DNA of 31,137 nucleotides from IMG/VR virus record IMGVR_UViG_2565956719_000009; one strand, given 5' to 3'. This DNA comes from a virus (taxonomy: Duplodnaviria > Heunggongvirae > Uroviricota > Caudoviricetes). The notes beneath the pieces are model-generated. The model ran no database searches and had not been told where the DNA came from. It saw only the letters and a program-made list of their open reading frames with translations. Made by a program: the position numbers and the translations under genes. This document shows positions 1-15,548 of this stretch, piece after piece (the stretch's first letter is position 1; the number at the start of each line of letters is the position of its first letter).

Positions 1-1131
1 TCAAATGACCAGTTTTTTCCATTCCTTACCGCGTGCGTCGTTGTAAATATCGGTCATTTTTTGATTCGAATGGCCTAGCAAAATTTTGGTATCAACCCCC
101 TGCTCTCTGAACAATCGCTCTGATAAAGATCTCTGCTCATGGAAAGAGGGTGGGGTGCCATTAGCACGCCAGTTGTAATCCACAGAATCCCGGGCTTTTT
201 TAAATGCAACGGTTAATGTTGCTGGCTTAACCATCCCACCGCGCTTAGCTGTCCCTTTCGCGTGATGGTGGTGCAATAGCCACGGACTAAGAACGCAATC
301 GCGGCAGGATGACACCACATCATCCAGGGTGAGATTTAATTTATCGCAACGTAGAGCCAGAGGGATGGCAATCCGGGTTCCTGTTTTTTGCTGTTCGACA
401 TGAAGATAACCATCCCGGATATCCGAAAATTGCATTTTGCAAATATCTGAAAGGCGCTGGCCTGTCATCAGTGCCAGCAGCATACCGCGCTGTAAAAAGT
501 AACCATCCTTTTCCGCTGCGTTATAAATCATCATCCACTCATCAAAAGTCAGTCGCTGTCTTGATATCCGCACCTGCGGTTTTTTTGCAGATTCTGCAGG
601 GTTAAAGCCTGGCGGGACATCGCCCGTTTGCTGAGCTTCCCGGAAAACATCGATCAGTATTTTCCTGAAAATTTGTCCCATTCTGTTATGTCCTCTGGCC
701 TTGTACTCTTCCAGTACTGATACCACATCTTTTACGGTTATGGCATCTAACGGTCTGGTGCCAAAACGTTCATCAAATACCCTGAGAGGGGCCGCTTTCT
801 GTTTCAGCGTGTTGAGTTTGATCTCGCCGTTTTCATATCTTTCCTGTTGAATTTTTCTGTAATTATTCAGAAAAATGGTAACGGTTGATGAACCGCCGGT
901 ATCACTAATAATTTTCTCCTGCAGACTGAGCATTTGTTCCATTTGCTGCCGGGCAAGACGGCTGTTCGCTTCTGCTGCAATAGTTTCTGCCAGTTTCTGG
1001 TCAATACTGCCGAGACCGTGATTTTTGCCTGTTATGGGATGCCTGTAACGCCAGTAAACTTTGTTATTTCTTTTGTCAAAATACGGAGATAATCCCGGAA
1101 CATCGGTTTTATATTTTCGCGGGCGCGCCAT
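1..1131 (-). CDS. int: Tyrosine-type site-specific recombinase, lambda Int-like phage integrase
   Basis: 376 aa; C-terminal tyrosine-recombinase region (..LLGHSNQKMTDIYNDARGKEW..) resembles lambda Int from memory; first gene of a lambda-ordered prophage; 3' end overlaps xis. Confidence 0.9.
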   Translation of the reverse strand: MARPRKYKTDVPGLSPYFDKRNNKVYWRYRHPITGKNHGLGSIDQKLAETIAAEANSRLARQQMEQMLSLQEKIISDTGGSSTVTIFLNNYRKIQQERYENGEIKLNTLKQKAAPLRVFDERFGTRPLDAITVKDVVSVLEEYKARGHNRMGQIFRKILIDVFREAQQTGDVPPGFNPAESAKKPQVRISRQRLTFDEWMMIYNAAEKDGYFLQRGMLLALMTGQRLSDICKMQFSDIRDGYLHVEQQKTGTRIAIPLALRCDKLNLTLDDVVSSCRDCVLSPWLLHHHHAKGTAKRGGMVKPATLTVAFKKARDSVDYNWRANGTPPSFHEQRSLSERLFREQGVDTKILLGHSNQKMTDIYNDARGKEWKKLVI

Positions 1132-1357
1132 CTTCCAGTATCCTCTTCAAAGCAGGGTGATCTGTGGCGATCACCTCCGGCTTGTTTACCATTCCGACAA
1201 AGCGAGCTTGCGGATCCACTCGCCAGCGTCTTCCAACTTTTTTGGGGAGAGGAAATATCATTCCGGCTTTAGCGTATTTACTTAACGTACTCGGAGTAGG
1301 GACCGGTTCACTGAACTCCTCTTTTGCCCACTCAGTGAGCAGAATAAGTCTTGCCAT
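1109..1357 (-). CDS. xis: Excisionase, lambda Xis-like
   Basis: 82 aa, directly upstream of and overlapping int by ~23 nt; LTEWAK..GMIFPLPKKVGRRWRV resembles lambda Xis (LQEWNAR..RIFPPPVKDGREY) from memory. Confidence 0.7.
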   Translation of the reverse strand: MARLILLTEWAKEEFSEPVPTPSTLSKYAKAGMIFPLPKKVGRRWRVDPQARFVGMVNKPEVIATDHPALKRILEDGAPAKI

Positions 1358-1421
1358 GAGCGTCGTTCGCTAATCATGGTCGCCGCCACTATAGCTGGTG
1401 GGCAACGACCGGGGTTGAACA

Positions 1422-3893
1422 TTAAAAATCAGCCTGATTCGGGATCAGTTTTTGCCAGATAGCTGAAACGTATTTTGCCTGGTAACGGGCATCATCCAGC
1501 GCATTGTGGCGCTCACCTTCGAATGGGATAGCAGTTCTGGCATCGAAGTCTACGGCTTTCCCCAGCTCAACGATTGTGCGTACATCGCGATCGTTGCAGT
1601 AGCGCCACGGGCAGGGGATACCCTGTCGTTCGTATGAACGGCGCAAAATCGTGTTGTCGAAGTTGGCCCCATTACCCCAGACCTGAACAAAAAACTCACC
1701 GGAGTTTTCGTCGATAAATTCCCGCAATTGCAGTAGTGCATCATCTAACGGGATTTCATCGGTCATAATGGCAGACTGCGCTTCACGTGATTGCTTCAGC
1801 CACCATTTAATGACGTCACGATCAATGACTCCGCCAGCAGTATCCAGATCGATGGTCTTGCTAAATTCTGGTCCCATATCTCCGGTTTGCGGATCGAAAA
1901 ATATTGCGCCTATTGAGATAATCGGGGCATCGGGATTTTTTCCCATGGTTTCAAGGTCGATCATCAGATGAATCCCCGCTCTGCTGGTGGATGTGAGATT
2001 ATGATGACTGTTCGCCTTAATTAAGGGATCTGACGCCTCGCCAGTTTCACTATCGCTGGCATGATGCTGATTGCCGCCAGTGTTCTCCTTGTGCTGATGT
2101 GCAGTACCTTCCATTTCCTCCGGATCATTTTCCTGAACTTCAGGCTGATTCTCTTCATCGAATATTTCCTGGTATGTTGCGTCGCCCATCACCGCGCCAC
2201 AATCAGGGCAGTTGCCGCCGCCGGTCTGACCGCAGGCGGTGCAGACTTTTTCCGGTTCCTGTTGCGCCACTGGTTCAGGCTGTTTCGTTTCTGGCTCGTT
2301 TTGTAACGCATTTGGGCTGTTTTGTTCCGCTTTCTGGTCGTTCTGTTCCGTTTCTTGCTGGTTCTGGTTCACAGAATCGCGGGTTTCAATCCCCTTCACC
2401 CATTTCGGATCATTCGGGTCGCTAATCCCTGCAACAAATTCACCACGTGATGCGGCGAGCAACTGATTGGCGTCAGGCTGGCTGATATTGGCTGCCTGCA
2501 TAATTTTCTTTACTTCGTCAGCGGTAACTTTTACCGGTTCTGGTTGTTCAGAATTTTGTGCGGTATTTGCATTTTGCGGTAAGCCTGTGTATGTGCCATT
2601 TTTTCGGGCAAAATATTCTTCTTTTGTGATTTCAGTAGCCCCGGCAGCCAGCGCCTTATCCAGACCAGAAAGTTTGTTTGCGCGACCGTATTTTTCGCAA
2701 TCCTTGTCGGTGAAGAAGAAGTAGAACGGCCCCTCACGCTCTACAGATGGTTCGACTTCCACTTTGCATTCGGTTTTTTCGTTGTCCGGAATTGCCGTTT
2801 CCACTGCATCAGTTTCTGGTACTGGCGACGAGAGAGTGTCAGTTGCGCTCTGATTTGTTCCTTCATCTTCAAACACGCCCTTTGTAGTCAGGTATTCAGT
2901 AATGTATTTGTTCAGTGCCACAGGGTCTTTGTGAATGTCGATCGGACGTTCACGGACAAGGCCAAAAATAGTCTGGCGGTCGTAGCGAAGGGCATCAGGC
3001 TGTTTGCGCATTGATGCCGAGATACGCTTCCAGTCTTCGCGGTCGTTGTCGATAACTTCATTTTTTGCCCAGCGATGGATGCTGCCGTCAATGTTTCCGG
3101 CATCCACATCACCAGGCCAGAGAGCGTAGGCCAGTTCGTCATCCAGTGTTTTCCATGTCTGCTTATATTCGCGACGAATGACTGCAGTGACAGGGGGGAT
3201 TTTTTCTGCTGAGTTTTCAGTGTGCTGTCGGTGGACTCTGGCGCGGGCGAGATCAACAACAGACGTGTATTTTCCGGTTTCCTTGCGTTCACCTTCGCGA
3301 CGTTTTTTCCAGATGCGCATCTCTGCCTGAATTTCGGGCCATTTGGCACCAGGCTTACATTTATGCTTAACCCACCCGATGGCATGCAGCTTAAGCTCCG
3401 GATACATGGCGTTAACTTCTGGCATTTTCATCAACGCTTCAACGATATGTCCGTCGAATGTTGCCATGTCTTCCTGCAACAATTCCTGCGCGCTAATCAC
3501 CATATCAACGGTGATGTTTTCACATGTGTCGAACTTAACCATGACAGCGTTCTGTACTTCAGGGGCCAGCTTGTCAAAAGCGACGTTCATCGGATCTGAT
3601 TCAGTCTCAACCGGGACAAAGGAAGTAGCCCCCTCATCCCAGCGGTTTTCCTGCATATATTCAGCATCCCATGAATCGAGGGCAGGGCGGGGTATACCGG
3701 GTTTATCCTCGCAAACAAGAAATTTATAAGCGCAGTCCTGAGCAGCCGGATAATGCTCCAGGAATTGCCAGTGAAATTTTGCGCGGGCGCGACGTTCATC
3801 ACCGGCTTCAATGGCAGTGGCTACAGCGACTGCACCTTCTTCCTTTATTGCCTGTTCGTCCGGAATGGCGGCGCAAATAAAGACTTTACTCAT
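1422..3893 (-). CDS. RecE-like exonuclease with a DnaQ/DEDDh-type 3'-5' exonuclease C-terminal domain
   Basis: 823 aa; central segment (AASRGEFVAGISDPNDPKWVKG..CTACGQTGGGNCPDCGAVMGD) matches the middle of Rac RecE as recalled; C-terminus (LMIDLETMG..HNALDDA..Y) has DEDDh exonuclease motifs instead of the RecE nuclease fold. Confidence 0.8.
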   Translation of the reverse strand: MSKVFICAAIPDEQAIKEEGAVAVATAIEAGDERRARAKFHWQFLEHYPAAQDCAYKFLVCEDKPGIPRPALDSWDAEYMQENRWDEGATSFVPVETESDPMNVAFDKLAPEVQNAVMVKFDTCENITVDMVISAQELLQEDMATFDGHIVEALMKMPEVNAMYPELKLHAIGWVKHKCKPGAKWPEIQAEMRIWKKRREGERKETGKYTSVVDLARARVHRQHTENSAEKIPPVTAVIRREYKQTWKTLDDELAYALWPGDVDAGNIDGSIHRWAKNEVIDNDREDWKRISASMRKQPDALRYDRQTIFGLVRERPIDIHKDPVALNKYITEYLTTKGVFEDEGTNQSATDTLSSPVPETDAVETAIPDNEKTECKVEVEPSVEREGPFYFFFTDKDCEKYGRANKLSGLDKALAAGATEITKEEYFARKNGTYTGLPQNANTAQNSEQPEPVKVTADEVKKIMQAANISQPDANQLLAASRGEFVAGISDPNDPKWVKGIETRDSVNQNQQETEQNDQKAEQNSPNALQNEPETKQPEPVAQQEPEKVCTACGQTGGGNCPDCGAVMGDATYQEIFDEENQPEVQENDPEEMEGTAHQHKENTGGNQHHASDSETGEASDPLIKANSHHNLTSTSRAGIHLMIDLETMGKNPDAPIISIGAIFFDPQTGDMGPEFSKTIDLDTAGGVIDRDVIKWWLKQSREAQSAIMTDEIPLDDALLQLREFIDENSGEFFVQVWGNGANFDNTILRRSYERQGIPCPWRYCNDRDVRTIVELGKAVDFDARTAIPFEGERHNALDDARYQAKYVSAIWQKLIPNQADF

Positions 3894-3985
3894 TTTGTTT
3901 TACCTCATTACAGATTTAAGGGTGAACAAATCCCTGCCATTGCTGGCATATAAGAATGAAATCGGATGTTTATTACGGAACTGTT

Positions 3986-4186
3986 TTAAAGACCTGCCGG
4001 GATTTCGCTATTATCCTGGTGAATAACTTTATCGACAGGGTAACAGTTACCGGGAATTTTCTGTTCGGTTGCTGCAGTCACACACTCCTGCATTGTCCTG
4101 TGAACACTGACTGCAATATCAACTGGCTCTCCGGAAACAAGAAAAACTGTCAGAACAAGTGCAAATGCTGTATTCATTGCCAGCAT
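3986..4186 (-). CDS. Hypothetical small protein with N-terminal hydrophobic/signal-like segment
   Basis: Track ORF 3986..4231; internal start MLAMNTAFALVLTVFLVSGEP gives a signal-peptide-like N-terminus; early-left operon position. No recognisable family. Confidence 0.3.
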   Translation of the reverse strand: MLAMNTAFALVLTVFLVSGEPVDIAVSVHRTMQECVTAATEQKIPGNCYPVDKVIHQDNSEIPAGL

Positions 4187-4467
4187 CCTTTTTGTATCGG
4201 ACGTAAACGGGCCAGCATTGAAAGAATGCATATTTTATTTAATAACTCCCGTTCGTGTTTTCTCTTGTTAATGGCATCTTCAGTAAATACAGGGTTACTG
4301 ATAGTGACACCAATTTCAAAACAACCTTCAGACGTATTAACGTTTGGTAATAACGTTTCCATTATCGCGTCCTCAACAATGAATTTTGTGATGCGGTGCC
4401 TGGTGCCTCCAGGTGACGTTAACCAGTTAACAATTAACGCCGGATACAGAGAATCCACCCATAACAC
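4174..4467 (-). CDS. Hypothetical early-left protein
   Basis: 97-aa ORF co-oriented with the early-left operon between the exonuclease and IS2; no recognisable motif. Confidence 0.3.
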   Translation of the reverse strand: MLWVDSLYPALIVNWLTSPGGTRHRITKFIVEDAIMETLLPNVNTSEGCFEIGVTISNPVFTEDAINKRKHERELLNKICILSMLARLRPIQKGCWQ

Positions 4468-4855
4468 TGTTTTTGGTTTTAACTGTTCCGCGTGCGCTTA
4501 GCCGCATTCACTGCATCACAAAATTCACTTTAAAAAGGGTGGCAGAGCAGTCACGGAGTAGAACTGATGCCACCAAAGACTACACATGGATATTGTGGCG
4601 GGGCTGTCACTTAAGCGTATGGTCAGCCTGACAACCCGGTGTCCTCAAGGGGAAGGAATAACCCCGCCATACTTACCGCCGCGCCATTTCGCGGATTGCC
4701 ACAACCGGAAGCGCACGGTCGAATTAAATTTAACGACAAAGTACAGAGAGACGAGCTTCTCCGTGTGCTTTCGCGTTATGCTCTGACTTTTCAGAGAAAT
4801 ATCCTTTCAGTAAACTGTCAGTGCCGGATGTTCACCCGTGTCCGTGGATTTGCCC

Positions 4856-5761
4856 CTATATTTCCAGACACCTGTTATCACTTAACCCATTACTGGCTTG
4901 CTGCCGTAGATATTCCCGTGGCGAGCGATAACCCAGTGCACTATGCGGATGCCATTCGTTATAATGCTCGAACGCCTCTGCAAGGTTCTTTGCTGCCGTT
5001 AACCCGTCTGGTTTGGGCATGACACTGATGTAGTCACGCTTTATCGTTTTCACGAAGCTCTCTGCTATGCCGTTACTCTCCGGACTCCGCACCGCCGTGC
5101 TCTTCGGTTCAAGCCCCAACATCCGGGCAAACTGCCGTGTTTCATTAGCCCGGTAGCATGAACCATTATCCGTCAGCCACTCTACTGGAGACGCCGGAAG
5201 CTCGTTGCCGAAGCGGCGTTCCACCGCTCCCAGCATGACGTCCTGTACTGTTTCACTGTTGAAGCCGCCCGTAGTGACCGCCCAGTGCAGTGCCTCACGG
5301 TCACAGCAGTCCAGCGCGAACGTGACTCGCAGTTTTTCTCCGTTATCACAGCGGAACTCGAACCCGTCAGAGCACCATCGCTGATTACTTTCTTTCACAG
5401 CCACTCTGCCTGTATGTGCCCGTTTCGATGGCGGTACAGCAGGTTTTCGCTCAAGCAACAGCGCATTCTGGCGCATGATCCGGTAAACACGTTTGGCATT
5501 GATCGCAGGCATACCATCAAGTTCTGCCTGTCTGCGAAGCAGCGCCCATACCCGACGATAACCATACGTGGGCAGCTCTCCGATAACATGGTGTATACGG
5601 AGAAGCACATCCGTATCATCAGTGTGACGACTGCGGCGGCCATCCATCCAGTCATCGGTTCGTCTGAGAATGACGTGCAACTGCGCACGCGACACCCGGA
5701 GACAACGGCTGACTAAGCTTACTCCCCATCCCCGGGCAATAAGGGCGCGTGCGCTATCCAC
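4856..5761 (-). CDS. insD: IS2 transposase OrfB (InsD)
   Basis: 301 aa, near-identical to IS2 InsD as recalled ([46 protein letters not shown]...). Confidence 0.9.
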
Positions 5762-6084
5762 TTTTTTGCCCGTCCATATTCAACGGCTTCTTTGAGGAGT
5801 TCATTTTCCATCGTTTTCTTGCCGAGCAGGCGCTGGAGTTCTTTAATCTGCTTCATGGCGGCAGCAAGTTCAGAGGCAGGAACAACCTGTTCTCCGGCGG
5901 CGACAGCAGTAAGACTTCCTTCCTGGTATTGCTTACGCCAGAGAAATAACTGGCTGGCTGCTACACCATGTTGCCGGGCAACGAGGGAGACCGTCATCCC
6001 TGGTTCAAAGCTCTGCTGAACAATTGCGATCTTTTCCTGTGTGGTACGCCGTCTGCGTTTCTCCGGTCCTAAGACATCAATCAT
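5719..6084 (-). CDS. insC: IS2 OrfA (InsC), HTH protein; fused to InsD by -1 frameshift
   Basis: Internal start [41 protein letters not shown]... matches IS2 InsC; overlaps insD; A6G slippery heptamer on the minus strand at ~5762-5768. Confidence 0.9.
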
Positions 6085-6247
6085 CTGCTCTCCAATGACT
6101 AGTCTAAAAACTAGTATTAAGACTATCACTTAAATAAGTGATATTGGTTGTCTGGTGATTCAGGGGGCCAGTCTAGTCCGGCGCACGCACTCCACTTCAC
6201 CCGTGGAGAACTCCTTAATTACCAACCTTAGCTTCGTTGGTTAGCTA

Positions 6248-6466
6248 TTAACGCGGGTATGTAATCATTCTGGCAATGCTTAATGCCGCTGCTTTTTCCA
6301 GATTGGTGATATCCTGCTCCAGAGCGGACAGATTTTCAGCCTGCTTAGCCCTGGCTTCATTGGCCCATTTCAGATCCTGCGCTGCATTAATTTTCTGGCG
6401 CATCCACTCATAAAGTTCATCATCGGTATAGTCTGGCGCGATGATGACGGGTTCTCGTTTCTGCAT
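6248..6466 (-). CDS. Hypothetical early-left protein
   Basis: 72-aa ORF co-oriented with the leftward early operon downstream of the pL-like region; charged/coiled-coil-like composition; no family recognised. Confidence 0.4.
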   Translation of the reverse strand: MQKREPVIIAPDYTDDELYEWMRQKINAAQDLKWANEARAKQAENLSALEQDITNLEKAAALSIARMITYPR

Positions 6467-6558
6467 GTCGGCTCCTTGTGGTTAGCGTTGCCTGCTTTTA
6501 ACCACGTCAGGCGAGGTGGTATCCTCTGAGGGGTCTGTTACTCGAGAGGAAATTGGTT

Positions 6559-6759
6559 ATGAGTACAATCAAGTTTTCTTGCCCAGAATGTGGTGGCGAA
6601 GTCTTTGACACATCCTTTAAGCCGCAGGGCTCTGACAGTTTCGCGGGAGCCATCTGCAAAAATTGTGGTCACCTTGTAACTGAAGATGAGTCCTCGCAGT
6701 TCGATGACGAAATCGTTGACAATATCTTCGGTGCACTCACCAGAGACTTTCTGAAGTAA
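6559..6759 (+). CDS. Small zinc-ribbon protein (CPECG..CKNCG)
   Basis: ATG at ~6559 preceded by GAGAGGA RBS; two CxxC pairs 30 residues apart followed by an acidic tail; opposite strand to the early-left operon, so it would need its own promoter. Confidence 0.4.
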   Translation: MSTIKFSCPECGGEVFDTSFKPQGSDSFAGAICKNCGHLVTEDESSQFDDEIVDNIFGALTRDFLK

Positions 6760-7083
6760 AGGCGCATACCGCTTAGTTACCGCTCTGATAATTCTTACCT
6801 GTCCGGCAATGGCGCTGATGTCAATATAAAGCGCCATTGCTGCTTCTTTGCCGATCCCGGGATGCCTTCCATTCTGATGTTTGACTTCGCCCACTGAGAA
6901 ATCCTCTGTTTCCCCTTAACGCCGGGGTAGCGGAACAAAAACCTGCTGCATAGTTATTAAAGTTGAACCCTGCCGTCATGTTCTTACGCCTCGGGCTGGC
7001 TACTTAACCCCTGACCACTGCCTGGTAACTCGAAGTATTGCCCTGCATTCTGTGGGGCGGGGTGGGTTGGTATGAAAAGAAGG

Positions 7084-7120
7084 ATACCCATAGGTATTTA
7101 AAAAGTAAATACCCATGGGT
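7084..7120. promoter_or_regulatory. Left operator cluster (OL-like) with candidate pL
   Basis: ATACCCATAGGTAT (7084-7097) and ACCCATGGGT (7111-7120, perfect palindrome) just downstream of the repressor gene; on the minus strand TTTACC-17 bp-TAAATA overlaps them. Confidence 0.45.
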
Positions 7121-7163
7121 AAATTTTTGCGGTGTCTTAACTGGTGACTAGTTGTTTGGTGAG

Positions 7164-7583
7164 CTATGATGCGTTTTGTGCTTTCTTTTTACGGATTTCT
7201 TCGTAGATCATATTGTAATACTGTTTTTTCTCTTCAAGAGTTTTTAATAATTTATCCGCTTCACTTTCTGGCAGTTCGTCTAAGAGATCTAAAAAAATAC
7301 GTTGTCGTGGCGTTAGAACCCTTGTTTCATAACTGGAGGCTGTGTTCGTTGATGATGAAACGATACCATCCATCCATCCCCGGGGTAACCCAAAGGACTC
7401 TTCGATAATCTCCACCATATCATCAGCGATCCGTTTTTTTCCCTTTTTCCCCTCTGGGTACAACATTCTTGATACATAAGAAGGCTCGCGCCCGATCTTT
7501 CTGGCCACGTTAACCGCTTTACCATCGCATTTCTCATCACGAATTTTGATGAGTTGCTGTCGTCTAAATTCATATTTGTCCAT
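7164..7583 (-). CDS. Prophage repressor, HTH DNA-binding (RacR/CI-like functional position)
   Basis: 139 aa; HTH-like segment KAVNVARKIGREPSYVSRML; divergent from the Cro-like gene; flanked on both sides by the same operator motif. Confidence 0.75.
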   Translation of the reverse strand: MDKYEFRRQQLIKIRDEKCDGKAVNVARKIGREPSYVSRMLYPEGKKGKKRIADDMVEIIEESFGLPRGWMDGIVSSSTNTASSYETRVLTPRQRIFLDLLDELPESEADKLLKTLEEKKQYYNMIYEEIRKKKAQNAS

Positions 7584-7618
7584 AGGTAAATAATAGATGC
7601 GATTACCGCAAGGTAAAC

Positions 7619-7661
7619 AACCTGTGGGTATTGACTTTTGTTTACCTGTGGGTATTCTTTG
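7619..7661. promoter_or_regulatory. Right operator cluster (OR-like) with candidate pR
   Basis: Two copies of ACCTGTGGGTAT (7620-7631, 7644-7655) bracket a TTGACT -35 (7631-7636) and TATTCT -10-like hexamer upstream of the Cro-like gene; a further CCATAGGTAAA site overlaps the repressor start. Confidence 0.45.
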
Positions 7662-7683
7662 CTGTGTTTACTAAGGAGTAGCT

Positions 7684-7965
7684 ATGGAAGAATTAAGAAT
7701 ATTTCTCAATTCTCTTTCGTCAGATGAACAGCGTATGTTTGCATGCGAGTGTGGTACCAGCATCGGTTATCTAAGAAAGGCATTGAGTAAAGGTCAAGTG
7801 TTAGGGGCATCGTTATGTGTCCTTATTGAGCGAGCCAGTAATGGTGAAGTTACACGTCAGCAACTAAGGCCTTTTGATTGGATGAATATTTGGCCCGAGC
7901 TGGAAGATACCAAAACGTTAACACAACCACTTTCTAGGAGCTTGATTCATGAAAATCAAGCATGA
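7684..7965 (+). CDS. Cro-like / YdaS-like HTH regulator
   Basis: 93 aa, first gene rightward of the operator region, divergent from the repressor; GAGGAG RBS; synteny with Rac racR-ydaS-ydaT. Confidence 0.65.
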   Translation: MEELRIFLNSLSSDEQRMFACECGTSIGYLRKALSKGQVLGASLCVLIERASNGEVTRQQLRPFDWMNIWPELEDTKTLTQPLSRSLIHENQA

Positions 7966-8374
7966 ACACATCCGCATGGCGATGAATGCCTGGGCGCGTC
8001 CTGATGGCGAAAAAGTTCCAGCAGCTGGAATAACCCAGGCTTATTTTGAGTTGGGTATGACGTTCCCGGAACTGTATGACGACAGCCATCCGGAAGCCCT
8101 GGCTCGCAATACCCAGAAAATTTTCCGCTGGGTAGAGAAAGACACCCCTGATGCTGTTAAAAAAATGCAGGCTCTGTTACCGGCGATCGAAAAGGCGATG
8201 CCGCCTTTGCTGGTGGCCCGTATGCGCAGCCACAGTTCTGAATATTACCGTGAGATCGTCGAACGGAGGGATCGGCTGGTGAAGGATGTCGATGATTTTG
8301 TTGCGTCAGCGGTTGTTTTGTATGACCAGATGAATCGCGGCGGCCCGGCAGGGAATGCTGTGGTGATGCACTAA
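7949..8374 (+). CDS. YdaT-like protein (CII-position regulator)
   Basis: 141 aa beginning MKIKHEHI..., overlapping the Cro-like gene end; positional and N-terminal resemblance to Rac YdaT as recalled. Confidence 0.55.
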   Translation: MKIKHEHIRMAMNAWARPDGEKVPAAGITQAYFELGMTFPELYDDSHPEALARNTQKIFRWVEKDTPDAVKKMQALLPAIEKAMPPLLVARMRSHSSEYYREIVERRDRLVKDVDDFVASAVVLYDQMNRGGPAGNAVVMH

Positions 8375-8381
8375 AAGCACG

Positions 8382-9359
8382 GTGTTCGGGGGTTTTATGA
8401 GCAGCAAGCTTCATGGTCTTGTCTGGGAAGGGTGCGCCTTCACCGGCATGATCTTATCCAGGGTGGCGGTTATGGCCCGTCTTGCAGACTACAGCAATGA
8501 CGAGGGCGTGTCATGGCCTGCCATTGAAACTATCCGGCGTCAGATCGGTGCAAGAAGTGAATCCACAGTGAAATCGGCTATTGCAGAACTGGCGAAAGAG
8601 GGCTGGCTGACGAAGGAAGAGCGTAAGGTCGGTGGGCGTAATGTAAGCAATATCTATCGGCTTAATGTGGAAAAACTCGAAGCAGCTGCGGCGGCGGCGC
8701 GTGAGTCATATAAACCGAAAAGAAAAATTAGCCCGGCAAAAAATGACCCGTTAACAGTTGACCCGTCAAATATTGACCCCTCAACGGTTGACCCGTCAAA
8801 TTTTGATGGATCAACTGTTGATAAAAAACTGCCGATTAGGGGGGCGATGATTGACCCCGATCCGTCAGTATTAAAACCTGATCCGTCAGATAAAAGATCT
8901 TCTTGTCCGGACGCTTCGCAACCGGACCCGCAGACGGCTGAACAGGATTTTTTAACCCGACACCCTGACGCGGTTGTGTTCAGTGCGAAAAAACGCCAGT
9001 GGGGAAGTCAGGAAGATTTGGTGTGCGCACAGTGGATCTGGGGACGAATCGTGAGTCTTTACGAGCAGGCGGCCAGCTATGATGGCGAGATCACTAGACC
9101 GAAAGAACCCAACTGGACAGCATGGGCCAATGACGTTCGCACAATGCGGATGCTGGATGGCAGAACTCACAGACAAATTTGTGAAATGTTTGGGCGTCTC
9201 CAGCGGGATTCGTTCTGGGTAAAAAACATCATGAGTCCGGCAAAACTCCGGGAAAAATGGGATGAACTGGTTATCCGCCTGGGGCGTTCGCCTGCGCAGC
9301 GTTGCGTGAATCACATTTCTGAACCGGACACTGAAATACCGCCGGGATTCAGGGGGTGA
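8382..9359 (+). CDS. Replication initiator, lambda O-like (N-terminal wHTH, origin iterons inside the gene)
   Basis: 325 aa; N-terminal HTH; 15-bp-period DNA iterons at 8740-8830 encode the peptide repeat VDPSN-IDPST-VDPSN-FDGST; followed by a DnaC-like loader. Confidence 0.7.
   Translation: MFGGFMSSKLHGLVWEGCAFTGMILSRVAVMARLADYSNDEGVSWPAIETIRRQIGARSESTVKSAIAELAKEGWLTKEERKVGGRNVSNIYRLNVEKLEAAAAAARESYKPKRKISPAKNDPLTVDPSNIDPSTVDPSNFDGSTVDKKLPIRGAMIDPDPSVLKPDPSDKRSSCPDASQPDPQTAEQDFLTRHPDAVVFSAKKRQWGSQEDLVCAQWIWGRIVSLYEQAASYDGEITRPKEPNWTAWANDVRTMRMLDGRTHRQICEMFGRLQRDSFWVKNIMSPAKLREKWDELVIRLGRSPAQRCVNHISEPDTEIPPGFRG
8740..8830. repeat. Candidate replication origin: TTGACCCGTCAA-type iterons at 15-bp spacing followed by a short A-rich stretch
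   Basis: GTTGACCCGTCAAA (x2), ATTGACCCCTCAAC, TGACCCGTTAACA, TTTGATGGATCAAC in tandem inside the initiator ORF; more GATCCGTCAG repeats at ~8850-8890. Confidence 0.55.
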
Positions 9360-9365
9360 CGTGTC

Positions 9366-10112
9366 ATGAAAAACATTGCGGCAGTTGGGGTTCTTGAACG
9401 TATTCGCAGACTTGCACCACAGGGGTCGGTTCCACCGTACCGGACGGTGGAGGAGTGGCGGGAATGGCAACTTGCTGAAGGACGAAAACGCAGCGAGGAG
9501 ATTAACCGCCAGAATCGCCAGTTGCGGGTGGAAAAAATCCTGAATCGTTCGGGCATCCAGCCTCTGCACAGCAAATGCTCGTTTGCAAATTATCAGGTGC
9601 AGAACGACGGGCAAAAATACGCGCTGAGCCAGGCCAAATCCATAGCTGACGAACTGATGACCGGGTGCACGAATTTTGTGTTCAGCGGTAAAACCGGCAC
9701 CGGGAAAAATCACCTTGCAGCGGCGATGGGCAACCGGCTGATGGTGAAGGGGCGCAGCGTGATTATCGTCACCGTGTCTGACGTCATGAGCGTGTTGCAT
9801 GACAGCTACGACAACGGCAAATCCGGGGAAAAATTTTTACAGGAGCTTTGCGGGGTTGATTTGCTGGTCCTGGATGAAATAGGCGTTCAGCGGGAGACGA
9901 AAAACGAGCAGGTGGTATTGCACCAGATAATTGATCGCCGGACAGCATCACTGTGCAGTGTCGGGATGTTAACAAACCTGAATCATGCCGCAATGAGTAC
10001 GCTTCTTGGTGAGAGGATTATGGACCGCATGACCATGAACGGTGGTCGATGGGTGACGTTTAACTGGGATAGCTGGCGTCCAAATGTCAGCAATATGAGG
10101 GTTGTGAAGTAA
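9366..10112 (+). CDS. DnaC-like helicase loader (IstB-like AAA+ ATPase)
   Basis: 248 aa; Walker A GKTGTGKNHLAAA, Walker B LLVLDEIG; immediately downstream of the initiator. Confidence 0.85.
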   Translation: MKNIAAVGVLERIRRLAPQGSVPPYRTVEEWREWQLAEGRKRSEEINRQNRQLRVEKILNRSGIQPLHSKCSFANYQVQNDGQKYALSQAKSIADELMTGCTNFVFSGKTGTGKNHLAAAMGNRLMVKGRSVIIVTVSDVMSVLHDSYDNGKSGEKFLQELCGVDLLVLDEIGVQRETKNEQVVLHQIIDRRTASLCSVGMLTNLNHAAMSTLLGERIMDRMTMNGGRWVTFNWDSWRPNVSNMRVVK

Positions 10113-10133
10113 TTTTGTCCGGAGGAAATTTTA

Positions 10134-10904
10134 ATGGAAACCGTATCTGACGCACTGAAAGCACTGAAAAAAGCCTCTTCACATGTGGTGGCAGCTCGCC
10201 TTGGAATCAGTCGTGAAGAGGCTGTCAACGAGCTGTGGGAACTCAAAAGAAAAGGCGTCGTTGATAAAACTGGTCACACCTGGTATCTGGCTGGCGAAGG
10301 TGAATCCCGGGTAACCGAAGAGCGGCCAGTAAAATCTGAAGCACAGGATATGCTGACCGGGGAGGTCGAACAAAAAGTTACCGCAGACATGATGATTGAG
10401 TTTATCGGTCAGGATGGGGCTAAAACGTGTGAGGAACTGGCGGGTAAGTTCGGTGTCAGTACTCGCAAGGTTGCTTCCACGCTGGCGGTGGTAACCGCAA
10501 CGGGGCGGCTGGCACGCGTTAATCAGAACGGTAAATTTCGTTACTGCATGCCGGGCGATAATTTACCAGCAGAGCCGAAAGCCGCGCTGGTAACGGAAAG
10601 TGATGGTAAGGCCTTTCCTCAGCCAGCAGGTGCTGCGTTACCAGTCCGGGAAGCCGCAACACAGGAAGAAATTAAAACAGAAACTGTGGCGGACATTGTG
10701 CAGCCGTTGCCATCGTTTACCGAAACGCAAGCAGATGAGCTGATTTTTCCGTCCCTTCGCAGGGCAAACCTGGCGCTGCGCAGGGCGAAAAGTGATGTTC
10801 AGAAGTGGGAGCGAGTCTGCGCCGCGCTGCGGGAGCTGAACAAGCACCGGGATATTGTTCGACAGATTACTGATTCTTCCCGCCGTGTTGTATCGGAAAA
10901 GTGA
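10134..10904 (+). CDS. Hypothetical protein with two tandem winged-helix-like modules
   Basis: 256 aa; internal repeat (VVAARLGISREEAVNELWELKRKGVV / AKTCEELAGKFGVSTRKVASTLAVVTATGRLARV); RBS GGAGGA; tightly packed after the loader gene. Confidence 0.55.
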   Translation: METVSDALKALKKASSHVVAARLGISREEAVNELWELKRKGVVDKTGHTWYLAGEGESRVTEERPVKSEAQDMLTGEVEQKVTADMMIEFIGQDGAKTCEELAGKFGVSTRKVASTLAVVTATGRLARVNQNGKFRYCMPGDNLPAEPKAALVTESDGKAFPQPAGAALPVREAATQEEIKTETVADIVQPLPSFTETQADELIFPSLRRANLALRRAKSDVQKWERVCAALRELNKHRDIVRQITDSSRRVVSEK

Positions 10905-11345
10905 TTGCCGGAGGCGCTTATGGCAAAAGTATTTACACAAGAAGAGCGGGAAAAAATTAAAGGGCAGGTTGTTGAACTTGTACGTCTGAGCGGTCGCGAG
11001 ACGTTGCGGCAACTGGAAGCCAGGACAGGTGCGACAAGATATCTGATGAGTGTTCTCGCCAGAGAGCTGGTTGCCAGTGGCGATGTATACAACTCTGGTT
11101 ACGGGTTATTCCCGTCTGAACAGGCGCGTAAGGACTGGCAAAATGCTCGCAAAAAACTCTCAAGGGCAAAGGTGAAGAAACCTGCAGTGGTTGATCCGGA
11201 CCTTATCTGGTCGTTACCAGACGGCGAAATACGCCGCTACGACAGGCGCCTGAATATAATCTGTCGCGAGTGCCGGAAGAGCGAAGCTATGCAGCGTGTA
11301 CTGGCATTTTATCAAGGAAATGTTAGGTATTTTAGACGTTACTAG
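10905..11345 (+). CDS. Hypothetical protein, N-terminal winged-helix-like and C-terminal basic region
   Basis: 146 aa; likely true start is the ATG ~15 nt into the track ORF (MAKVFTQ...); stop-start coupled to the upstream gene. Confidence 0.5.
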   Translation: MPEALMAKVFTQEEREKIKGQVVELVRLSGRETLRQLEARTGATRYLMSVLARELVASGDVYNSGYGLFPSEQARKDWQNARKKLSRAKVKKPAVVDPDLIWSLPDGEIRRYDRRLNIICRECRKSEAMQRVLAFYQGNVRYFRRY

Positions 11346-11498
11346 ATTAAAGAGCATTAGTTCAGATGTGAATTGACATTTTCATGGCGCAGGGTAGAGC
11401 CAGCGTGGTTGTCCGCTTTGCGTCAAAACCAGATATTACCAGATTTAGACATATATTCCCGATAGACCTGCTCTGATGCTACACTCTGTGCTATTTTC

Positions 11499-12185
11499 AT
11501 GACCCCAATAAAAATATTTATGACTATTGCTGATTTCAAACGGCCTAAATTGGAGCTCCCAAACGGGGCAAACAAACTACTACTGCACTCTTGCTGTGCT
11601 CCATGTTCCGGTGAAGTGATGGAGGCGCTTCAGGCCTCGGGAATCGACTACACCATCTTTTTCTACAACCCGAACATTCATCCTCAGAAAGAGTATTTAA
11701 TTCGTAAGGATGAAAATATTCGCTTTGCTGAACAACACGGCGTGCCGTTTATCGATGCTGATTACGACACCGACAACTGGTTTGAACGTGCCAAAGGAAT
11801 GGAATGGGAGCCTGAGAGGGGGATCCGTTGTACCATGTGTTTTGACATGCGTTTTGAGCGGACAGCGTTGTACGCTGCTGAAAATGGTTTCAGTGTGATC
11901 AGCAGTTCACTGGGCATTTCACGCTGGAAAAATATGCAGCAGGTTAACGAGTGTGGGCGGCGAGCTGTTGCGCATTATCCGGGTATGGTGTACTGGGATT
12001 ATAACTGGCGCAAGCAGGGCGGCTCGTCCCGTATGATTGAAATCAGCAAGCGCGAAAAATTCTATCAGCAGGAATATTGTGGCTGTGTGTATTCTCTGCG
12101 CGATACCAATCTACACCGCAAATCTCAGGGACGCCCTCTTATCAAAATTGGCCAACTCCACTACGGAAAAGAAGAGAAGGAGTGA
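11499..12185 (+). CDS. queH: QueH-like epoxyqueuosine reductase (DUF208 family), prophage-borne
   Basis: 228 aa with the DUF208/QueH hallmarks as recalled: [39 protein letters not shown]; preceded by a 150-bp intergenic region with promoter-like hexamers. Confidence 0.7.
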
Positions 12186-12422
12186 TTTTATGGATCACCT
12201 TTCTGATTGATTTCATATTGGCGAGGTGACGTGAGTTAAGTAGAATGGCTGCGGGTGCTTGAGGCTATCTGTCTCAGGCATGAACACTGAAAGGCAGATA
12301 GAGAAAAGCCCCAGTTAACATTTCGCGTCCTGCAAGACGCTTAACATTAATCTGAGGCCCAATCTATGTCTCACAAATGTAGGTTAGCCTCTTACGTGCC
12401 GAAAGGCAAGGGGAAGCAGGCT

Positions 12423-12578
12423 ATGAAGCAGCAAAAGGCGATGTTAATCGCCCTGATCGTCATCTGTTTAACCGTCATAGTGACGGCACTGGTAACGAGG
12501 AAAGACCTCTGCGAGGTACGACTCCGAACCGGCCAGACGGAGGTCGCTGTCTTCACAGCTTACGAACCTGAGGAGTAA
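12423..12578 (+). CDS. hokD: Hok/Gef-family type I toxin, HokD/RelF-like
   Basis: MKQQKAMLIALIVICLTVIVTALVTRKDLCEVRLRTGQTEVAVFTAYEPEE: single TM helix plus conserved C-terminus, near-identical to RelF/HokD as recalled; track ORF extends in frame upstream to 12366. Confidence 0.85.
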   Translation: MKQQKAMLIALIVICLTVIVTALVTRKDLCEVRLRTGQTEVAVFTAYEPEE

Positions 12579-12646
12579 GAGACCTGGCGGGGGAGAAATC
12601 CCTCGCCACCTCTGATGTGTCAGGCATCCTCAACGCACCCGCACTT

Positions 12647-12674
12647 AACCCGCTTCGGCGGGTTTTGTTTTTTT
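12647..12674 (+). terminator. Rho-independent terminator downstream of hok
   Basis: AACCCGC-TTCG-GCGGGTT stem-loop followed by TTGTTTTTTT. Confidence 0.65.
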
Positions 12675-12745
12675 CTGGCATTCTGGTTTACAATTCGCAC
12701 GTCAGCCTGAACACCTGACACCTGCTGCGCCAGCAGAGAAAACAG

Positions 12746-13018
12746 ATGGCGCACAAAACCAAATTTCACAATTCTGATACCGACCTTGCCATCCGGCATG
12801 GGCGGCGTTCACACGCATTTAAAACCGACTGGTACCAACACCCACCATGTACTGAAGAACAGGCCGAATGGCTAATTCATAACTACCGCAGACGCGGATA
12901 CGAGATTAAGAAAGCCCTCAGCCTCGATTATCGTCACTGGATAATCTCCGTCAGGCTTCCTTACTCTGAACGCCCACCGCGTCCGTCCCGCACATTCCAG
13001 CAACGCATCTGGAGGTAA
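12746..13018 (+). CDS. Hypothetical small protein (Qin Rem position)
   Basis: 90-aa ORF immediately upstream of, and abutting, the DUF968-like gene; no motif recognised. Confidence 0.45.
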   Translation: MAHKTKFHNSDTDLAIRHGRRSHAFKTDWYQHPPCTEEQAEWLIHNYRRRGYEIKKALSLDYRHWIISVRLPYSERPPRPSRTFQQRIWR

Positions 13019-13019
13019 C

Positions 13020-14075
13020 GTGCGGGTATTACTTCGACCTGTTCTGGTACCGGAACTCGGGCTGGTGATCGTTAAGCCGGGCCGTGAATCCATGCCGGTA
13101 TTCCACAATACCCGGGTACTGGTGGAGCCGGAACCGAAAAGCATGCGTAATCTGCCGTCCGGGGTCGTTCCTGCCGTTCGCCAGCCGCTGGCGGAGGATA
13201 AATCATTACTGCCATTTTTCAGCGACGAACGAGTGATTCGTGCTGCTGGTGGCGCTGGCGCATTGTCTGACTGGTTACTGCGCCATGTTAAATCCTGCCA
13301 GTGGCCACACGGCGATTATCACCACAGTGAAACCGTCATTCACCGTTATGGTACCGGCGCAATGGTGTTGTGCTGGCACTGCGACAACCAGCTGCGCGAC
13401 CAGACCTCCGAATCACTCGGGCAACTTGCTCACCAAAACCTGTCTGCATGGATGATTGACGTCATACGCCATGCAATGAATGGCTCGCAGGAGCGGGAAT
13501 TATCGCTGGCTGAATTATCCTGGTGGGCGGTCCGCAATCAGGTGGCGGACGCGCTACCGGAAGCGGTATTACGTCGTTCGCTGGGGTTGCGTGCGGAAAA
13601 AATCCGCTCAATGTACCGTGAAAGCGACATCGTACCGGGAGAGCAGACCGCCACCAGCATACTGAAGCAGCGCACAAAAAATCTTGCGCCGCTGCCTCAC
13701 GCCCACCAGCAAAACCCGCCACAGGAAAAGACGGTGGTCAGCATTGCCGTTGATCCGGAGTCACCGGCTCAGTATCTCCAGCGCCAGAAATCACAACGGG
13801 AAGAGATGCCTGTATACACGCGTTGGGTAAAAACGCAGAAATGCATGACGTGTGGCAATCAGGCAGATGATCCGCATCACATCATTGGTCATGGACTGGG
13901 AGGGATGGGAACAAAGGCTGATGATTTGTTTGTTATTCCGCTGTGCCGTAAATGCCATAGCGAACTACACGCCGGGGTAAAAGATTTTGAAGAAAAACAC
14001 GGCAGCCAGCTGTTGTTGCTGATTCGTTTTTTAATGCACGCGAGAAATTCGGGTGTTCTGAAGTGGAAAGCATAA
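13020..14075 (+). CDS. DUF968-like protein (YdfU-like) with C-terminal Cys/His HNH-like motif
   Basis: 351 aa; C-terminal CMTCGNQADDPHHIIGHG..LCRKCHSELH; directly upstream of rusA as in Qin/DLP12-type nin regions. Confidence 0.7.
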   Translation: MRVLLRPVLVPELGLVIVKPGRESMPVFHNTRVLVEPEPKSMRNLPSGVVPAVRQPLAEDKSLLPFFSDERVIRAAGGAGALSDWLLRHVKSCQWPHGDYHHSETVIHRYGTGAMVLCWHCDNQLRDQTSESLGQLAHQNLSAWMIDVIRHAMNGSQERELSLAELSWWAVRNQVADALPEAVLRRSLGLRAEKIRSMYRESDIVPGEQTATSILKQRTKNLAPLPHAHQQNPPQEKTVVSIAVDPESPAQYLQRQKSQREEMPVYTRWVKTQKCMTCGNQADDPHHIIGHGLGGMGTKADDLFVIPLCRKCHSELHAGVKDFEEKHGSQLLLLIRFLMHARNSGVLKWKA

Positions 14076-14441
14076 ATGACTGAACGCATAGAATTTGTTT
14101 TGCCTTACCCGCCAACGGTGAACACTTACTGGCGACGTCGTGGCAGCACATATTTTGTATCAAAAGTCGGTGAGCGTTATCGCCGTGATGTGGCGCTTAT
14201 TGTTCGCCAGCAGCAACTGAAATTAAACCTGTCCGGAAGGCCGGCAATAGAAATTATTGCAGAGCCACCGGATAAGCGCCGTCGTGACCTGGACAATATC
14301 CTGAAGGCACCACTGGATGTACTGACGCATGCGGGGCTGCTCATAGACGACGAGCAGTTTGATGAAATTAATATTGTGCGCGGTCAGCTTGTTCCTGGTG
14401 GGCGGTTGGGGATAAAAATCACAGAACTGGAGTACGCATGA
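14076..14441 (+). CDS. rusA: Holliday-junction resolvase RusA
   Basis: 121 aa; LPYPPTVNTYWRRRG...PDKRRRDLDNILKAPLDVLTHAGLLIDDEQ matches RusA catalytic-region motifs. Confidence 0.85.
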   Translation: MTERIEFVLPYPPTVNTYWRRRGSTYFVSKVGERYRRDVALIVRQQQLKLNLSGRPAIEIIAEPPDKRRRDLDNILKAPLDVLTHAGLLIDDEQFDEINIVRGQLVPGGRLGIKITELEYA

Positions 14442-15127: not shown

Positions 15128-15142
15128 ATAGCGTACGTTTCG

Positions 15143-15219
15143 TATAAATCTGATATTTTGCCGATTTTGTACGCGATGGCAAAGTAAGAAAAAAAACTGC
15201 CGTCAGGCGGTTTTTTTTT
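15143..15219 (+). promoter_or_regulatory. Candidate late promoter pR' with a tR'-like terminator
   Basis: TATAAAT at ~15143-15149; downstream A8-CTGCC-GTCA-GGCGG-T9 hairpin (15190-15219) flanked by A- and T-runs. Confidence 0.3.
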
Positions 15220-15341
15220 ATGCCCAAAATCGCGTCAGTACAGTAAACACGCTGGTGGTTGCGAATACGGGTCTTTCAGCTTGCTGGCTTTTTCGACAAG
15301 AGTTATTGGTATGTCACGTTAACCGGAAAAAGGAAAAAGAC

Positions 15342-15539: not shown

Positions 15540-15548
15540 AGGCTTTTT
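15525..15548 (+). terminator. Rho-independent terminator
   Basis: GCCTTCAG-TC-CTGAAGGC perfect inverted repeat followed by TTTTTT. Confidence 0.6.

What the first reader, a model, noticed from the sequence alone, without database searches (positions are those of the whole stretch)
1422..3893. RecE-like protein whose nuclease domain is replaced by a DnaQ-type 3'-5' exonuclease, with no SSAP partner gene
The central part of the 823-aa protein matches the linker region of Rac RecE as I recall it, including the zinc-ribbon-like CTACGQTGGGNCPDCG. The C-terminal ~200 aa instead show DEDDh 3'-5' exonuclease motifs (IDLETMG, HNALDDA, Y). No RecT/Bet-like annealase ORF is visible between this gene and xis or in the adjacent small ORFs. 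A 3'-5' exonuclease would give the opposite resection polarity to RecE, so this is unlikely to be a classical RecET-type recombination module.
Basis: partly seen in the sequence, partly recalled or inferred. Interest (0 to 1): 0.45.

Follow-up and report, generated by a model that had tools for sequence, protein, structure and literature searches.

The report
Prophage YdfE-type 3'-5' exonuclease, RecE-like scaffold
The gene is the intact form of the common E. coli prophage gene ydfE: it shares a middle section with the recombination nuclease RecE but ends in an exonuclease of opposite polarity and has no annealing-protein partner, and the family is already in databases though no experiment has shown what it does.

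Summary
ORF 1422-3893 (-) encodes 823 aa. Residues 262-625 align with Rac RecE 278-591, including the CxxC...CxxC knuckle. The match stops just before RecE's nuclease domain. Residues 642-813 are a PF16473 (Rv2179c/T4 DexA family) DEDDh 3'-5' exonuclease with all five catalytic residues. No annealase, SSB or RecBCD inhibitor was found anywhere in the window.

The protein is not new. It is 100% identical to E. coli WP_016235602.1 ('exonuclease') and matches PHROG 2082 end to end. It carries Pfam YdfE_N, YdfE_C and Rv2179c-like. The gene is present at 80% coverage or more in 3533 of 5426 complete E. coli genomes. K-12 ydfE is its IS2-truncated remnant.

What I add:
- The family is a mosaic with interchangeable C-terminal heads.
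- The two loci I examined with a RecE-type head both have RecT next door. None of about 12 DEDDh-head loci has an annealase.
- The prophage is Chi-rich (14 sites against 1.3 expected), which fits the published 'no Rec module, high Chi' lambdoid class.

Most likely it is a 3'-5' DNA-end exonuclease of the lytic cycle. Its exact role is inferred, not shown.

The parts
1422..3893 (-). Full-length ydfE-type exonuclease gene, 823 aa, intact
   Evidence: ORF list. 100% nt identity to APEC O18 CDS WP_016235602.1 'exonuclease'. PHROG 2082 matched 1-823 of 823.
3126..3893 (-). YdfE_N module (aa 1-256). Folded alpha/beta plus helical domain at aa 1-205.
   Evidence: 93% identical to the K-12 Qin YdfE pseudogene product. 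PF27430 YdfE_N is precomputed on homologues 89-99% identical to the query. AF2 pLDDT is about 90-97. No informative structural neighbour.
2589..3161 (-). YdfE_C region: helical domain aa 245-345 and small beta-hairpin/helix domain aa 388-435, joined by a disordered loop
   Evidence: AF2 pLDDT is mostly above 90 for both folded units. PF27432 YdfE_C on homologues. Weakly similar to RecE 278-360.
2019..2486 (-). Segment shared with Rac RecE (aa 470-625). Mostly disordered and acidic or Q-rich, with the conserved motif LLAASRGEFVxGISDPNDPKWVKGI (aa 478-502).
   Evidence: BLASTP against RecE 450-591. 76% DNA identity. NCBIfam NF007259 partial hit at aa 452-626, 276 bits against a cutoff of 1269. 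AF2 pLDDT is below 50 over most of 499-637.
2199..2243 (-). Four-cysteine zinc knuckle CTACGQTGGGNCPDC (C551, C554, C562, C565)
   Evidence: Cysteine positions. Conserved in RecE as CNACGQTGGDNCPDC.
1455..1970 (-). DEDDh 3'-5' exonuclease head (aa 642-813). Catalytic residues D646, E648, D746, H796, D801.
   Evidence: Pfam PF16473, E 2e-65. Aligned with T4 DexA and with mEpX2 and epsilon34 homologues. Residue conservation. Foldseek top hits are DexA, RNase T, Cas2-DnaQ and oligoribonuclease.
1109..1357 (-). Excisionase, immediately downstream of the exonuclease gene
   Evidence: Pfam Exc. RefSeq annotation.
1..1131 (-). Integrase of the prophage, which sits next to ompW in the near-identical APEC O18 copy
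   Evidence: RefSeq annotation of the near-identical APEC O18 prophage.
3986..4177 (-). ydfD (DUF1482), upstream in the same leftward operon
   Evidence: Pfam DUF1482. RefSeq coordinates transferred from L001.
4174..4362 (-). dicB, cell-division inhibitor
   Evidence: Pfam DicB. RefSeq annotation.
4537..4588 (-). DicF sRNA
   Evidence: Rfam RF00039, 61.1 bits against a gathering score of 48.
4845..6175 (-). IS2 inserted between DicF and ydfC. It separates the exonuclease end of the operon from the early-left promoter.
   Evidence: Absent from the otherwise 99.8% identical APEC O18 prophage. insC and insD ORFs. IS2 hits.

Best explanation
SHOWN. The gene is the intact form of the prophage gene ydfE. 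It has four parts:
- the YdfE_N and YdfE_C scaffold domains;
- a largely disordered acidic linker with a short conserved motif and a zinc knuckle, shared with Rac RecE;
- a catalytically complete DEDDh 3'-5' exonuclease head of the Rv2179c/T4 DexA family, in the position where RecE has its PD-(D/E)xK 5'-3' nuclease.

It is one combination in a mosaic family. Two kinds of N-terminus are joined to at least four kinds of C-terminal head. RecE-type heads are followed by a RecT gene. DEDDh heads are followed directly by xis and int, with no annealase, SSB or RecBCD inhibitor. The host prophage is lambdoid, lacks a recombination module and is rich in Chi sites.

INFERRED. The protein is made from the early-left operon after induction. 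It acts as a Mg-dependent 3'-5' exonuclease on DNA 3' ends, brought to its substrate or partner by the RecE-like scaffold. It cannot produce the 3' tails that single-strand annealing needs. It more likely removes 3' tails or blunts ends, much as host ExoI or ExoX do. In these phages that would feed ends into the host RecBCD-Chi-RecA pathway rather than a phage RecET/Red-type pathway.
For: - Domain calls and RecE boundary.
- YdfE identity.
- Catalytic residues each conserved in at least 129 of the 131 aligned sequences.
- Nearest solved structure is the DNA exonuclease T4 DexA.
- Mosaic family, shown by module-by-module phmmer on 50%-identity representatives.
- Context: window, L001, L002/L005, L009, L011-L014 and L019-L023 carry DEDDh heads and no SSAP. 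L010 and L017 carry RecE-type heads, each followed by a RecT-family gene.
- Standalone homologues 55-57% identical lie inside recombination modules (Rad52-type SSAP, SSB, exonuclease, Abc2) in mEpX2 and epsilon34.
- In phage LLS a standalone homologue sits immediately before xis and int. LLS has no Rec module and 23 Chi sites, and RecBCD enhances its growth (PMC12315714).
- 14 Chi sites in 31 kb against 1.28 expected, with 0 of 100 shuffles reaching 14.
- The active phage Tritos carries the gene and has no annotated annealase, with 11 Chi sites.
- Loss of the host 3'-5' exonuclease ExoI (a xonA mutation) enhances RecET-mediated DNA assembly, according to the title of PMC13048471.
Against: - No biochemical or genetic data exist for this protein. 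DNA rather than RNA as substrate is inferred only from the closer match to DexA, and the Pfam family is named after an exoribonuclease.
- The link to RecBCD and Chi is correlative. PMC12315714 explicitly does not count int-proximal DnaQ-type genes as recombination-module genes.
- The N-terminal domains have no informative structural neighbour, so the 'targeting scaffold' role is a guess.
- The head-type/RecT correlation rests on 2 against about 12 loci.
- In this copy an IS2 lies between the early promoter and the gene, so it may be poorly expressed here.
Confidence: 0.55

Rival explanations
1. DexA-like salvage nuclease. During lytic growth it degrades host DNA or oligonucleotides to mononucleotides for phage DNA synthesis and has no role in recombination.
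For: T4 DexA is the closest solved relative and is annotated as acting in host DNA degradation (PMC12153337). In LLS and mEp460_4F5 the standalone homologue lies in an operon with a predicted 5'-nucleotide phosphatase, yfdR (PMC12315714).
Against: Temperate lambdoid phages are not known to degrade host DNA wholesale. Salvage does not explain fusion to a RecE-type scaffold, or homologues sitting between SSB and Abc2.
Confidence: 0.15
2. Defence or exclusion nuclease of the HREX/EcD type, or a counter-defence nuclease. It destroys modified DNA of superinfecting T-even phages, or degrades a host immune nucleic acid.
For: A standalone E. coli DexA homologue, EcD, protects against T4 when expressed from a plasmid (PMC12153337). 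The gene is very abundant in prophages.
Against: The DexA residues reported to read 5hmC are not conserved. W152 corresponds to C766, a position that varies among C, H, Y and T. D169 corresponds to T787. PADLOC gives only a generic DEDDh hit. The gene lies in the repressed early-left operon, not in a lysogen-expressed position.
Confidence: 0.1
3. 3'-5' exoribonuclease like Rv2179c, acting on phage or host RNA, for example trimming transcripts of the dicBF operon it belongs to.
For: Pfam and NCBI name the domain an exoribonuclease. RNase T and oligoribonuclease are among the structural neighbours. DicF is processed from the same transcript.
Against: Only the DNA enzyme DexA is detectable in the PDB by sequence. 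Relatives with a RecE N-terminus sit in operons without DicF. The scaffold is shared with DNA recombination proteins.
Confidence: 0.1
4. Functionless passenger: a decaying remnant of a recombination gene kept only by hitch-hiking in prophages.
For: K-12 ydfE and a Shigella copy are pseudogenes. This prophage carries two IS elements.
Against: The full-length ORF is maintained in thousands of genomes, with each catalytic residue conserved in at least 129 of the 131 aligned sequences. It is present in plaque-forming phages such as Tritos, HannyBb and mEp460_ev081.
Confidence: 0.05

Closest known systems
Rac prophage RecE (exonuclease VIII), E. coli K-12
   Same: Shares the central region and the acidic, zinc-knuckle linker (aa 262-625 against RecE 278-591). 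Similar overall length. Same place in the early-left operon near xis and int.
   Different: RecE has PF06630 at its N-terminus, a PD-(D/E)xK 5'-3' nuclease at aa ~600-866, and RecT immediately downstream. This protein has YdfE_N, a DEDDh 3'-5' head and no RecT.
YdfE of the K-12 Qin prophage (pseudogene b1577)
   Same: 93% identical over aa 1-256. Same operon order: ydfC, DicF, dicB, ydfD, ydfE.
   Different: K-12 ydfE is cut by IS2E after codon ~256 and lacks everything downstream. The window gene is the complete version.
T4 DexA (PDB 8KEL) and E. coli EcD (HREX system)
   Same: Same PF16473/DEDDh fold and catalytic residues, 28% identity to DexA.
   Different: Those are standalone proteins. 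DexA is 227 aa. EcD starts at the exonuclease motif (MIDTET), judging from its cloning primers, and its length was not retrieved. The reported 5hmC-reading residues W152 and D169 are C766 and T787 here. DexA also has extra loops.
DnaQ-like exonucleases of lambdoid phages (epsilon34 gp34, mEpX2, LLS gp34)
   Same: 55-57% identical to the head domain. The LLS gene occupies the same position immediately upstream of xis and int in a Chi-rich phage without a Rec module.
   Different: They are 182-190 aa standalone proteins. The epsilon34 and mEpX2 homologues keep the DexA-type W and D residues. In epsilon34 and mEpX2 they sit inside an SSAP, SSB, Abc2 module.
Mycobacterium tuberculosis Rv2179c
   Same: Founding member of Pfam PF16473, which the head matches at 220 bits.
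   Different: A standalone exoribonuclease of a bacterium. No sequence-level hit in the PDB search at E<=1, so it is more distant than DexA.

Membership tests
RecE / exodeoxyribonuclease VIII | C-terminal PD-(D/E)xK 5'-3' nuclease domain (RecE aa ~600-866) | tested here: not met
   No alignment beyond RecE aa 591. tblastn of RecE 600-866 against the window gives only chance hits. phmmer of that module is negative on this protein but positive on P0131, P0141 and P0243.
RecE / exodeoxyribonuclease VIII | NCBIfam equivalog NF007259 at or above its cutoff | tested here: not met
   276 bits against a cutoff of 1269. Only model positions 445-603 matched.
RecE / exodeoxyribonuclease VIII | N-terminal Exonuc_VIII domain (PF06630) | tested here: not met
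   No Pfam hit. The N-terminus is YdfE-type.
RecE / exodeoxyribonuclease VIII | Adjacent RecT annealase gene | tested here: not met
   xis follows directly.
RecE / exodeoxyribonuclease VIII | Central region and zinc-knuckle linker | tested here: met
   E 5e-59. Roughly 75% identity (my count from the printed alignment) over aa 470-625.
Rv2179c-like / DexA DEDDh exonucleases (PF16473) | Pfam model above the gathering score | tested here: met
   220.2 bits against 27, covering 2-177 of 177 model positions.
Rv2179c-like / DexA DEDDh exonucleases (PF16473) | Complete DEDDh catalytic set | tested here: met
   D646, E648, D746, H796 and D801.
Rv2179c-like / DexA DEDDh exonucleases (PF16473) | DnaQ-like fold | tested here: met
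   Foldseek probability 1.00 to DexA, RNase T and oligoribonuclease. Model pLDDT in this domain is only about 50-86.
Rv2179c-like / DexA DEDDh exonucleases (PF16473) | 3'-5' exonuclease activity and substrate (DNA or RNA) | not testable with these tools
   Needs an enzyme assay.
HREX / EcD-type 5hmC-DNA exonuclease | Equivalents of DexA W152 and D169, reported as 5hmC-reading residues | tested here: not met
   C766 (varies among C, H, Y and T in the family) and T787. Depends on a MAFFT alignment at 28% identity.
HREX / EcD-type 5hmC-DNA exonuclease | Standalone exonuclease domain with no N-terminal extension (inferred for EcD from its cloning primers, which start at the MIDTET exonuclease motif; its length was not retrieved) | tested here: not met
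   Here the domain is the C-terminal domain of an 823-aa protein. The EcD primers encode MIDTET...TIPETYD, a different sequence.
YdfE family (Pfam YdfE_N PF27430 + YdfE_C PF27432) | Both domains present | tested here: met
   Precomputed on homologues 89-99% identical to the query, with names given. 93% identity to K-12 YdfE. The local Pfam copy lacks these two models.
Lambdoid recombination (Rec) module sensu Zheng et al. 2025 | Strand-annealing protein, with or without SSB, nuclease and anti-RecBCD genes, contiguous in the early-left operon | tested here: not met
   No SAP, SSB, Gam or Abc2 in the window.
'No Rec module, high Chi' lambdoid class (LLS type) | No Rec-module genes together with a Chi density well above expectation | tested here: met
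   14 Chi in 31.1 kb against 1.28 expected. Definition taken from PMC12315714. The window covers only part of the prophage.

The most novel reading that the evidence does not exclude
The YdfE/RecE scaffold could be a general platform on which lambdoid phages swap recombination 'heads': a 5'-3' nuclease paired with RecT, a 3'-5' nuclease, or a possible annealase. On this reading the DEDDh version, like LLS gp34, is an unrecognised accessory of the RecBCD-Chi-dependent growth strategy. It would trim 3' tails so that host RecBCD can load on phage DNA ends. That would make it a functional component of phages now classed as having no recombination genes.
Probability: 0.15. Interest if true: 0.6.

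Novelty: already known. Interest (0 to 1): 0.3.

Why it matters
[quoted passage not shown] It is present in about two thirds of complete genomes, often in several copies. It is frequently mislabelled 'exodeoxyribonuclease VIII', and no experiment has tested what it does.

Correct labelling matters for prophage annotation and for anyone mining RecET-like systems for recombineering. This protein would not work as a RecE. If the head type really tracks the phage's recombination strategy, the family offers a simple handle on how temperate phages choose between their own annealing pathway and the host RecBCD-Chi pathway.

Tried and rejected
- **Defence systems.** PADLOC gave only a weak generic CRISPR-associated DEDDh hit.
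- **HREX reading.** Rejected on residue mapping.
- **Promoter and terminator scan of 1000-7800.** Counts were no higher than in shuffled sequence.
- **The search for related loci.** The single-protein scan returned only 7 loci: Escherichia and Shigella, plus one metagenome bin labelled Veillonella.
- **Third C-terminal head type.** I tested whether it is a Rad52-type annealase. Pfam was sub-threshold in 9 of 11 members, hhalign was negative, and there was no PDB hit. This is unresolved.
- **Literature.** I found no paper on the 823-aa protein itself.
- **Limit of the annealase search.** No Erf seed sequence was used. Erf is covered only by the Pfam scans of the window ORFs and by precomputed Pfam labels of the neighbour genes.
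Full report
**The gene and its setting**

The ORF lies at 1422-3893 on the minus strand and encodes 823 aa. It is 100% identical at the DNA level to a CDS of E. coli APEC O18 (WP_016235602.1, 'exonuclease'), in a lambdoid prophage that lies next to ompW. The window matches that prophage at 99.2-100% identity, with two exceptions: an IS2 at 4845-6175 and a different immunity region.

The leftward operon runs cI-like repressor, ydfC, [IS2], DicF, dicB, ydfD, this gene, xis, int. This is the dicBF operon known from K-12 Qin. There ydfE is a pseudogene cut by IS2E. K-12 YdfE is 93% identical to aa 1-256 of the window protein. The window therefore holds the complete form of ydfE.

**Domain anatomy**

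- Pfam places PF16473 (Rv2179c-like 3'-5' exoribonuclease domain) at aa 642-813 (E 2e-65).
- NCBIfam's RecE equivalog matches only aa 452-626, far below its cutoff.
- BLASTP against K-12 RecE aligns aa 262-625 with RecE 278-591. Identity is high from aa ~470 and covers the four-cysteine knuckle. The match stops just before the RecE nuclease domain. DNA identity in that stretch is 76%.
- The catalytic residues D646, E648, D746, H796 and D801 are intact, and each is conserved in at least 129 of the 131 aligned sequences (query included).
- The only PDB relative detectable by sequence is T4 DexA, 8KEL. Foldseek ranks DexA, RNase T, a Cas2-DnaQ domain and oligoribonucleases first.
- AlphaFold2 gives confident folded units at aa 1-205, 245-345 and 388-435, plus the exonuclease head. 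aa 346-387 and most of 438-640 are predicted disordered. The 'RecE linker' is thus mainly an acidic disordered tether carrying a short conserved motif and a zinc knuckle.
- Homologues 89-99% identical to the query carry precomputed Pfam PF27430 (YdfE_N), PF27432 (YdfE_C) and PF16473.

**How common it is**

- PHROG 2082 ('exonuclease') matches end to end.
- Megablast finds the gene at 80% coverage or more in 3533 of 5426 complete E. coli genomes, with a median of two matching places per genome that has any.
- It occurs in sequenced phages: PPompW and Stx2a-converting phages, mEp460_ev081, Tritos, HannyBb and PhiR42_1. There it is often labelled 'exodeoxyribonuclease VIII'.
- In a one-genome-per-species collection it appears only in Escherichia and Shigella, plus one oddly labelled metagenome bin.

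**No annealase partner**

Pfam scans of the main ORFs from 3900 to 18700 found ydfD, dicB, a zinc-ribbon ORF, YdaS- and YdaT-type genes, replication genes, QueH, DUF968/HNH, RusA, Q, a methylase and a holin. None is an SSAP. tblastn or phmmer with RecT (two seeds), lambda Bet, Exo and Gam, a Rad52-type SSAP, SSB, Abc2, HK620 Sak4 and NinB, and the RecE nuclease domain found nothing in the window. The complete genome of phage Tritos, which carries the gene, has no annotated annealase either.

**A mosaic family**

I searched aa 1-640 against 50%-identity representatives and found 252 relatives. I then scored each long relative with separate modules. All of these combinations exist:
- YdfE_N and YdfE_C with a DEDDh head (this protein, P0122).
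- The RecE N-terminus with a DEDDh head (P0128, P0140, P0252). P0128 is in effect Rac RecE with only the head exchanged.
- The YdfE scaffold with a RecE-type nuclease (P0131, P0194, P0238).
- RecE proper.
- The YdfE scaffold with heads that match no nuclease (P0125 and the P0130 group).

The neighbourhoods separate cleanly. Both RecE-type-head loci I examined are followed at once by a RecT-family gene (L017 by Pfam; L010 at 1e-101 to it). All DEDDh-head loci go straight to xis or int, with no SSAP, SSB or RecBCD inhibitor. The sample is small: 2 loci against about 12.

**Relatives of the head domain in other lambdoid phages**

tblastn of the head finds 735 phage records. In mEpX2 and epsilon34 a 182-aa standalone homologue (55-57% identity) sits between SSB and Abc2, next to a Rad52-family SSAP. 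In phage LLS a 190-aa homologue, annotated 'DnaQ-like exonuclease', is the last gene before xis and int.

Zheng, Casjens, Smith and colleagues (PMC12315714) report three relevant points:
- Sporadic DnaQ-type genes occur near int outside Rec modules.
- LLS and about a fifth of lambdoid phages lack a Rec module, are Chi-rich and, in the case of LLS, grow better with RecBCD.

The window contains 14 Chi octamers against 1.28 expected. Tritos contains 11. This prophage therefore belongs to that class.

**Function**

Nothing has been tested experimentally. The intact catalytic site, conservation across thousands of copies and presence in active phages argue for a working enzyme.

Three observations point to DNA-end metabolism in the lytic cycle. 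DexA is the closest relative. The scaffold is shared with recombination proteins. Standalone homologues sit inside Rec modules.

A 3'-5' exonuclease removes the 3' tails that annealases use, and the title of PMC13048471 reports that a mutation in xonA, the gene for the host 3'-5' exonuclease ExoI, enhances RecET-mediated DNA assembly.

My preferred inference is trimming or blunting of 3' ends, which in Chi-rich phages without a Rec module would favour RecBCD entry. This is a hypothesis, not a result.

The HREX reading (PMC12153337) is unlikely, because the reported 5hmC-reading residues are replaced here. Salvage, RNase and relic readings remain possible at low probability.

**Verdict**

The object, however, is a catalogued and very common prophage protein, not a new architecture. 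What remains open is its biological role.

Noticed in passing
Proteins P0130, P0134, P0137, P0154, P0167 and others (alignment A5); locus L027 5001-7337: A third C-terminal head of about 260 aa occurs on the same YdfE scaffold, with the invariant motif KKSLTDAxKKALSxLGFxAD, which recalls the Rad52/Sak signature. Pfam Rad52_Rad22 is sub-threshold in 9 of 11 members. The gene is flanked by a Gam homologue (33% identical to lambda Gam) and a Sipho_Gp157 gene. It may be an annealase head. hhalign against one Rad52-type SSAP was negative.
   Followed up: partly
P0125 and P0260; loci L015 and L016 5001-7109: A fourth variant has YdfE_N and YdfE_C with a C-terminus of unknown type (phrog_26058) and no recognisable nuclease. 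It also sits in a prophage next to ompW, with no partner gene. It may correspond to the 'RecE-2' proteins mentioned in PMC12315714.
   Followed up: partly
window 4845-6175: IS2 (insC and insD on the minus strand) is inserted between DicF and ydfC. It is absent from the otherwise 99.8% identical APEC O18 prophage. It separates dicF, dicB, ydfD and the exonuclease gene from the early-left promoter.
   Followed up: partly
window 18982-20195: Two overlapping minus-strand ORFs (296 and 108 aa) carry an ALIL frameshift pseudoknot (Rfam RF01497, 19798-19914). This looks like an IS3-family element lying between the holin gene (18405-18725) and the next + strand ORF (20731-21264), which I did not identify, so the prophage may be lysis-defective.
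   Followed up: no
window 1394-21605: There are 14 Chi octamers (10 on the plus strand, 4 on the minus) against 1.28 expected from shuffles. That is about one per 2.2 kb, twice the E. coli average quoted in PMC12315714.
   Followed up: yes
window 16789-17791: Three tRNA genes (16789-17035) are followed by two copies of the sRNA STnc100 (17114-17304 and 17582-17791), downstream of a DNA methylase gene (15690-16739).
   Followed up: no
window 11499-12428: The prophage carries a QueH (epoxyqueuosine reductase) gene at 11499-12185. Just downstream, a sok antisense RNA (Rfam, 12253-12428) marks a hok/sok-type toxin-antitoxin locus, and the APEC O18 copy annotates hokD there.
   Followed up: no
window 7068-7936: The immunity region (repressor 7164-7583 and cro-like 7684-7965) is the only segment, apart from IS2, that does not match the APEC O18 prophage. 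This indicates an immunity-module exchange between near-identical prophages.
   Followed up: no
window 2466-2390 (aa 478-502): The motif LLAASRGEFVxGISDPNDPKWVKGI is nearly identical in this protein and in RecE, although it lies in a predicted disordered region. It is a candidate short linear interaction motif with an unknown partner.
   Followed up: no
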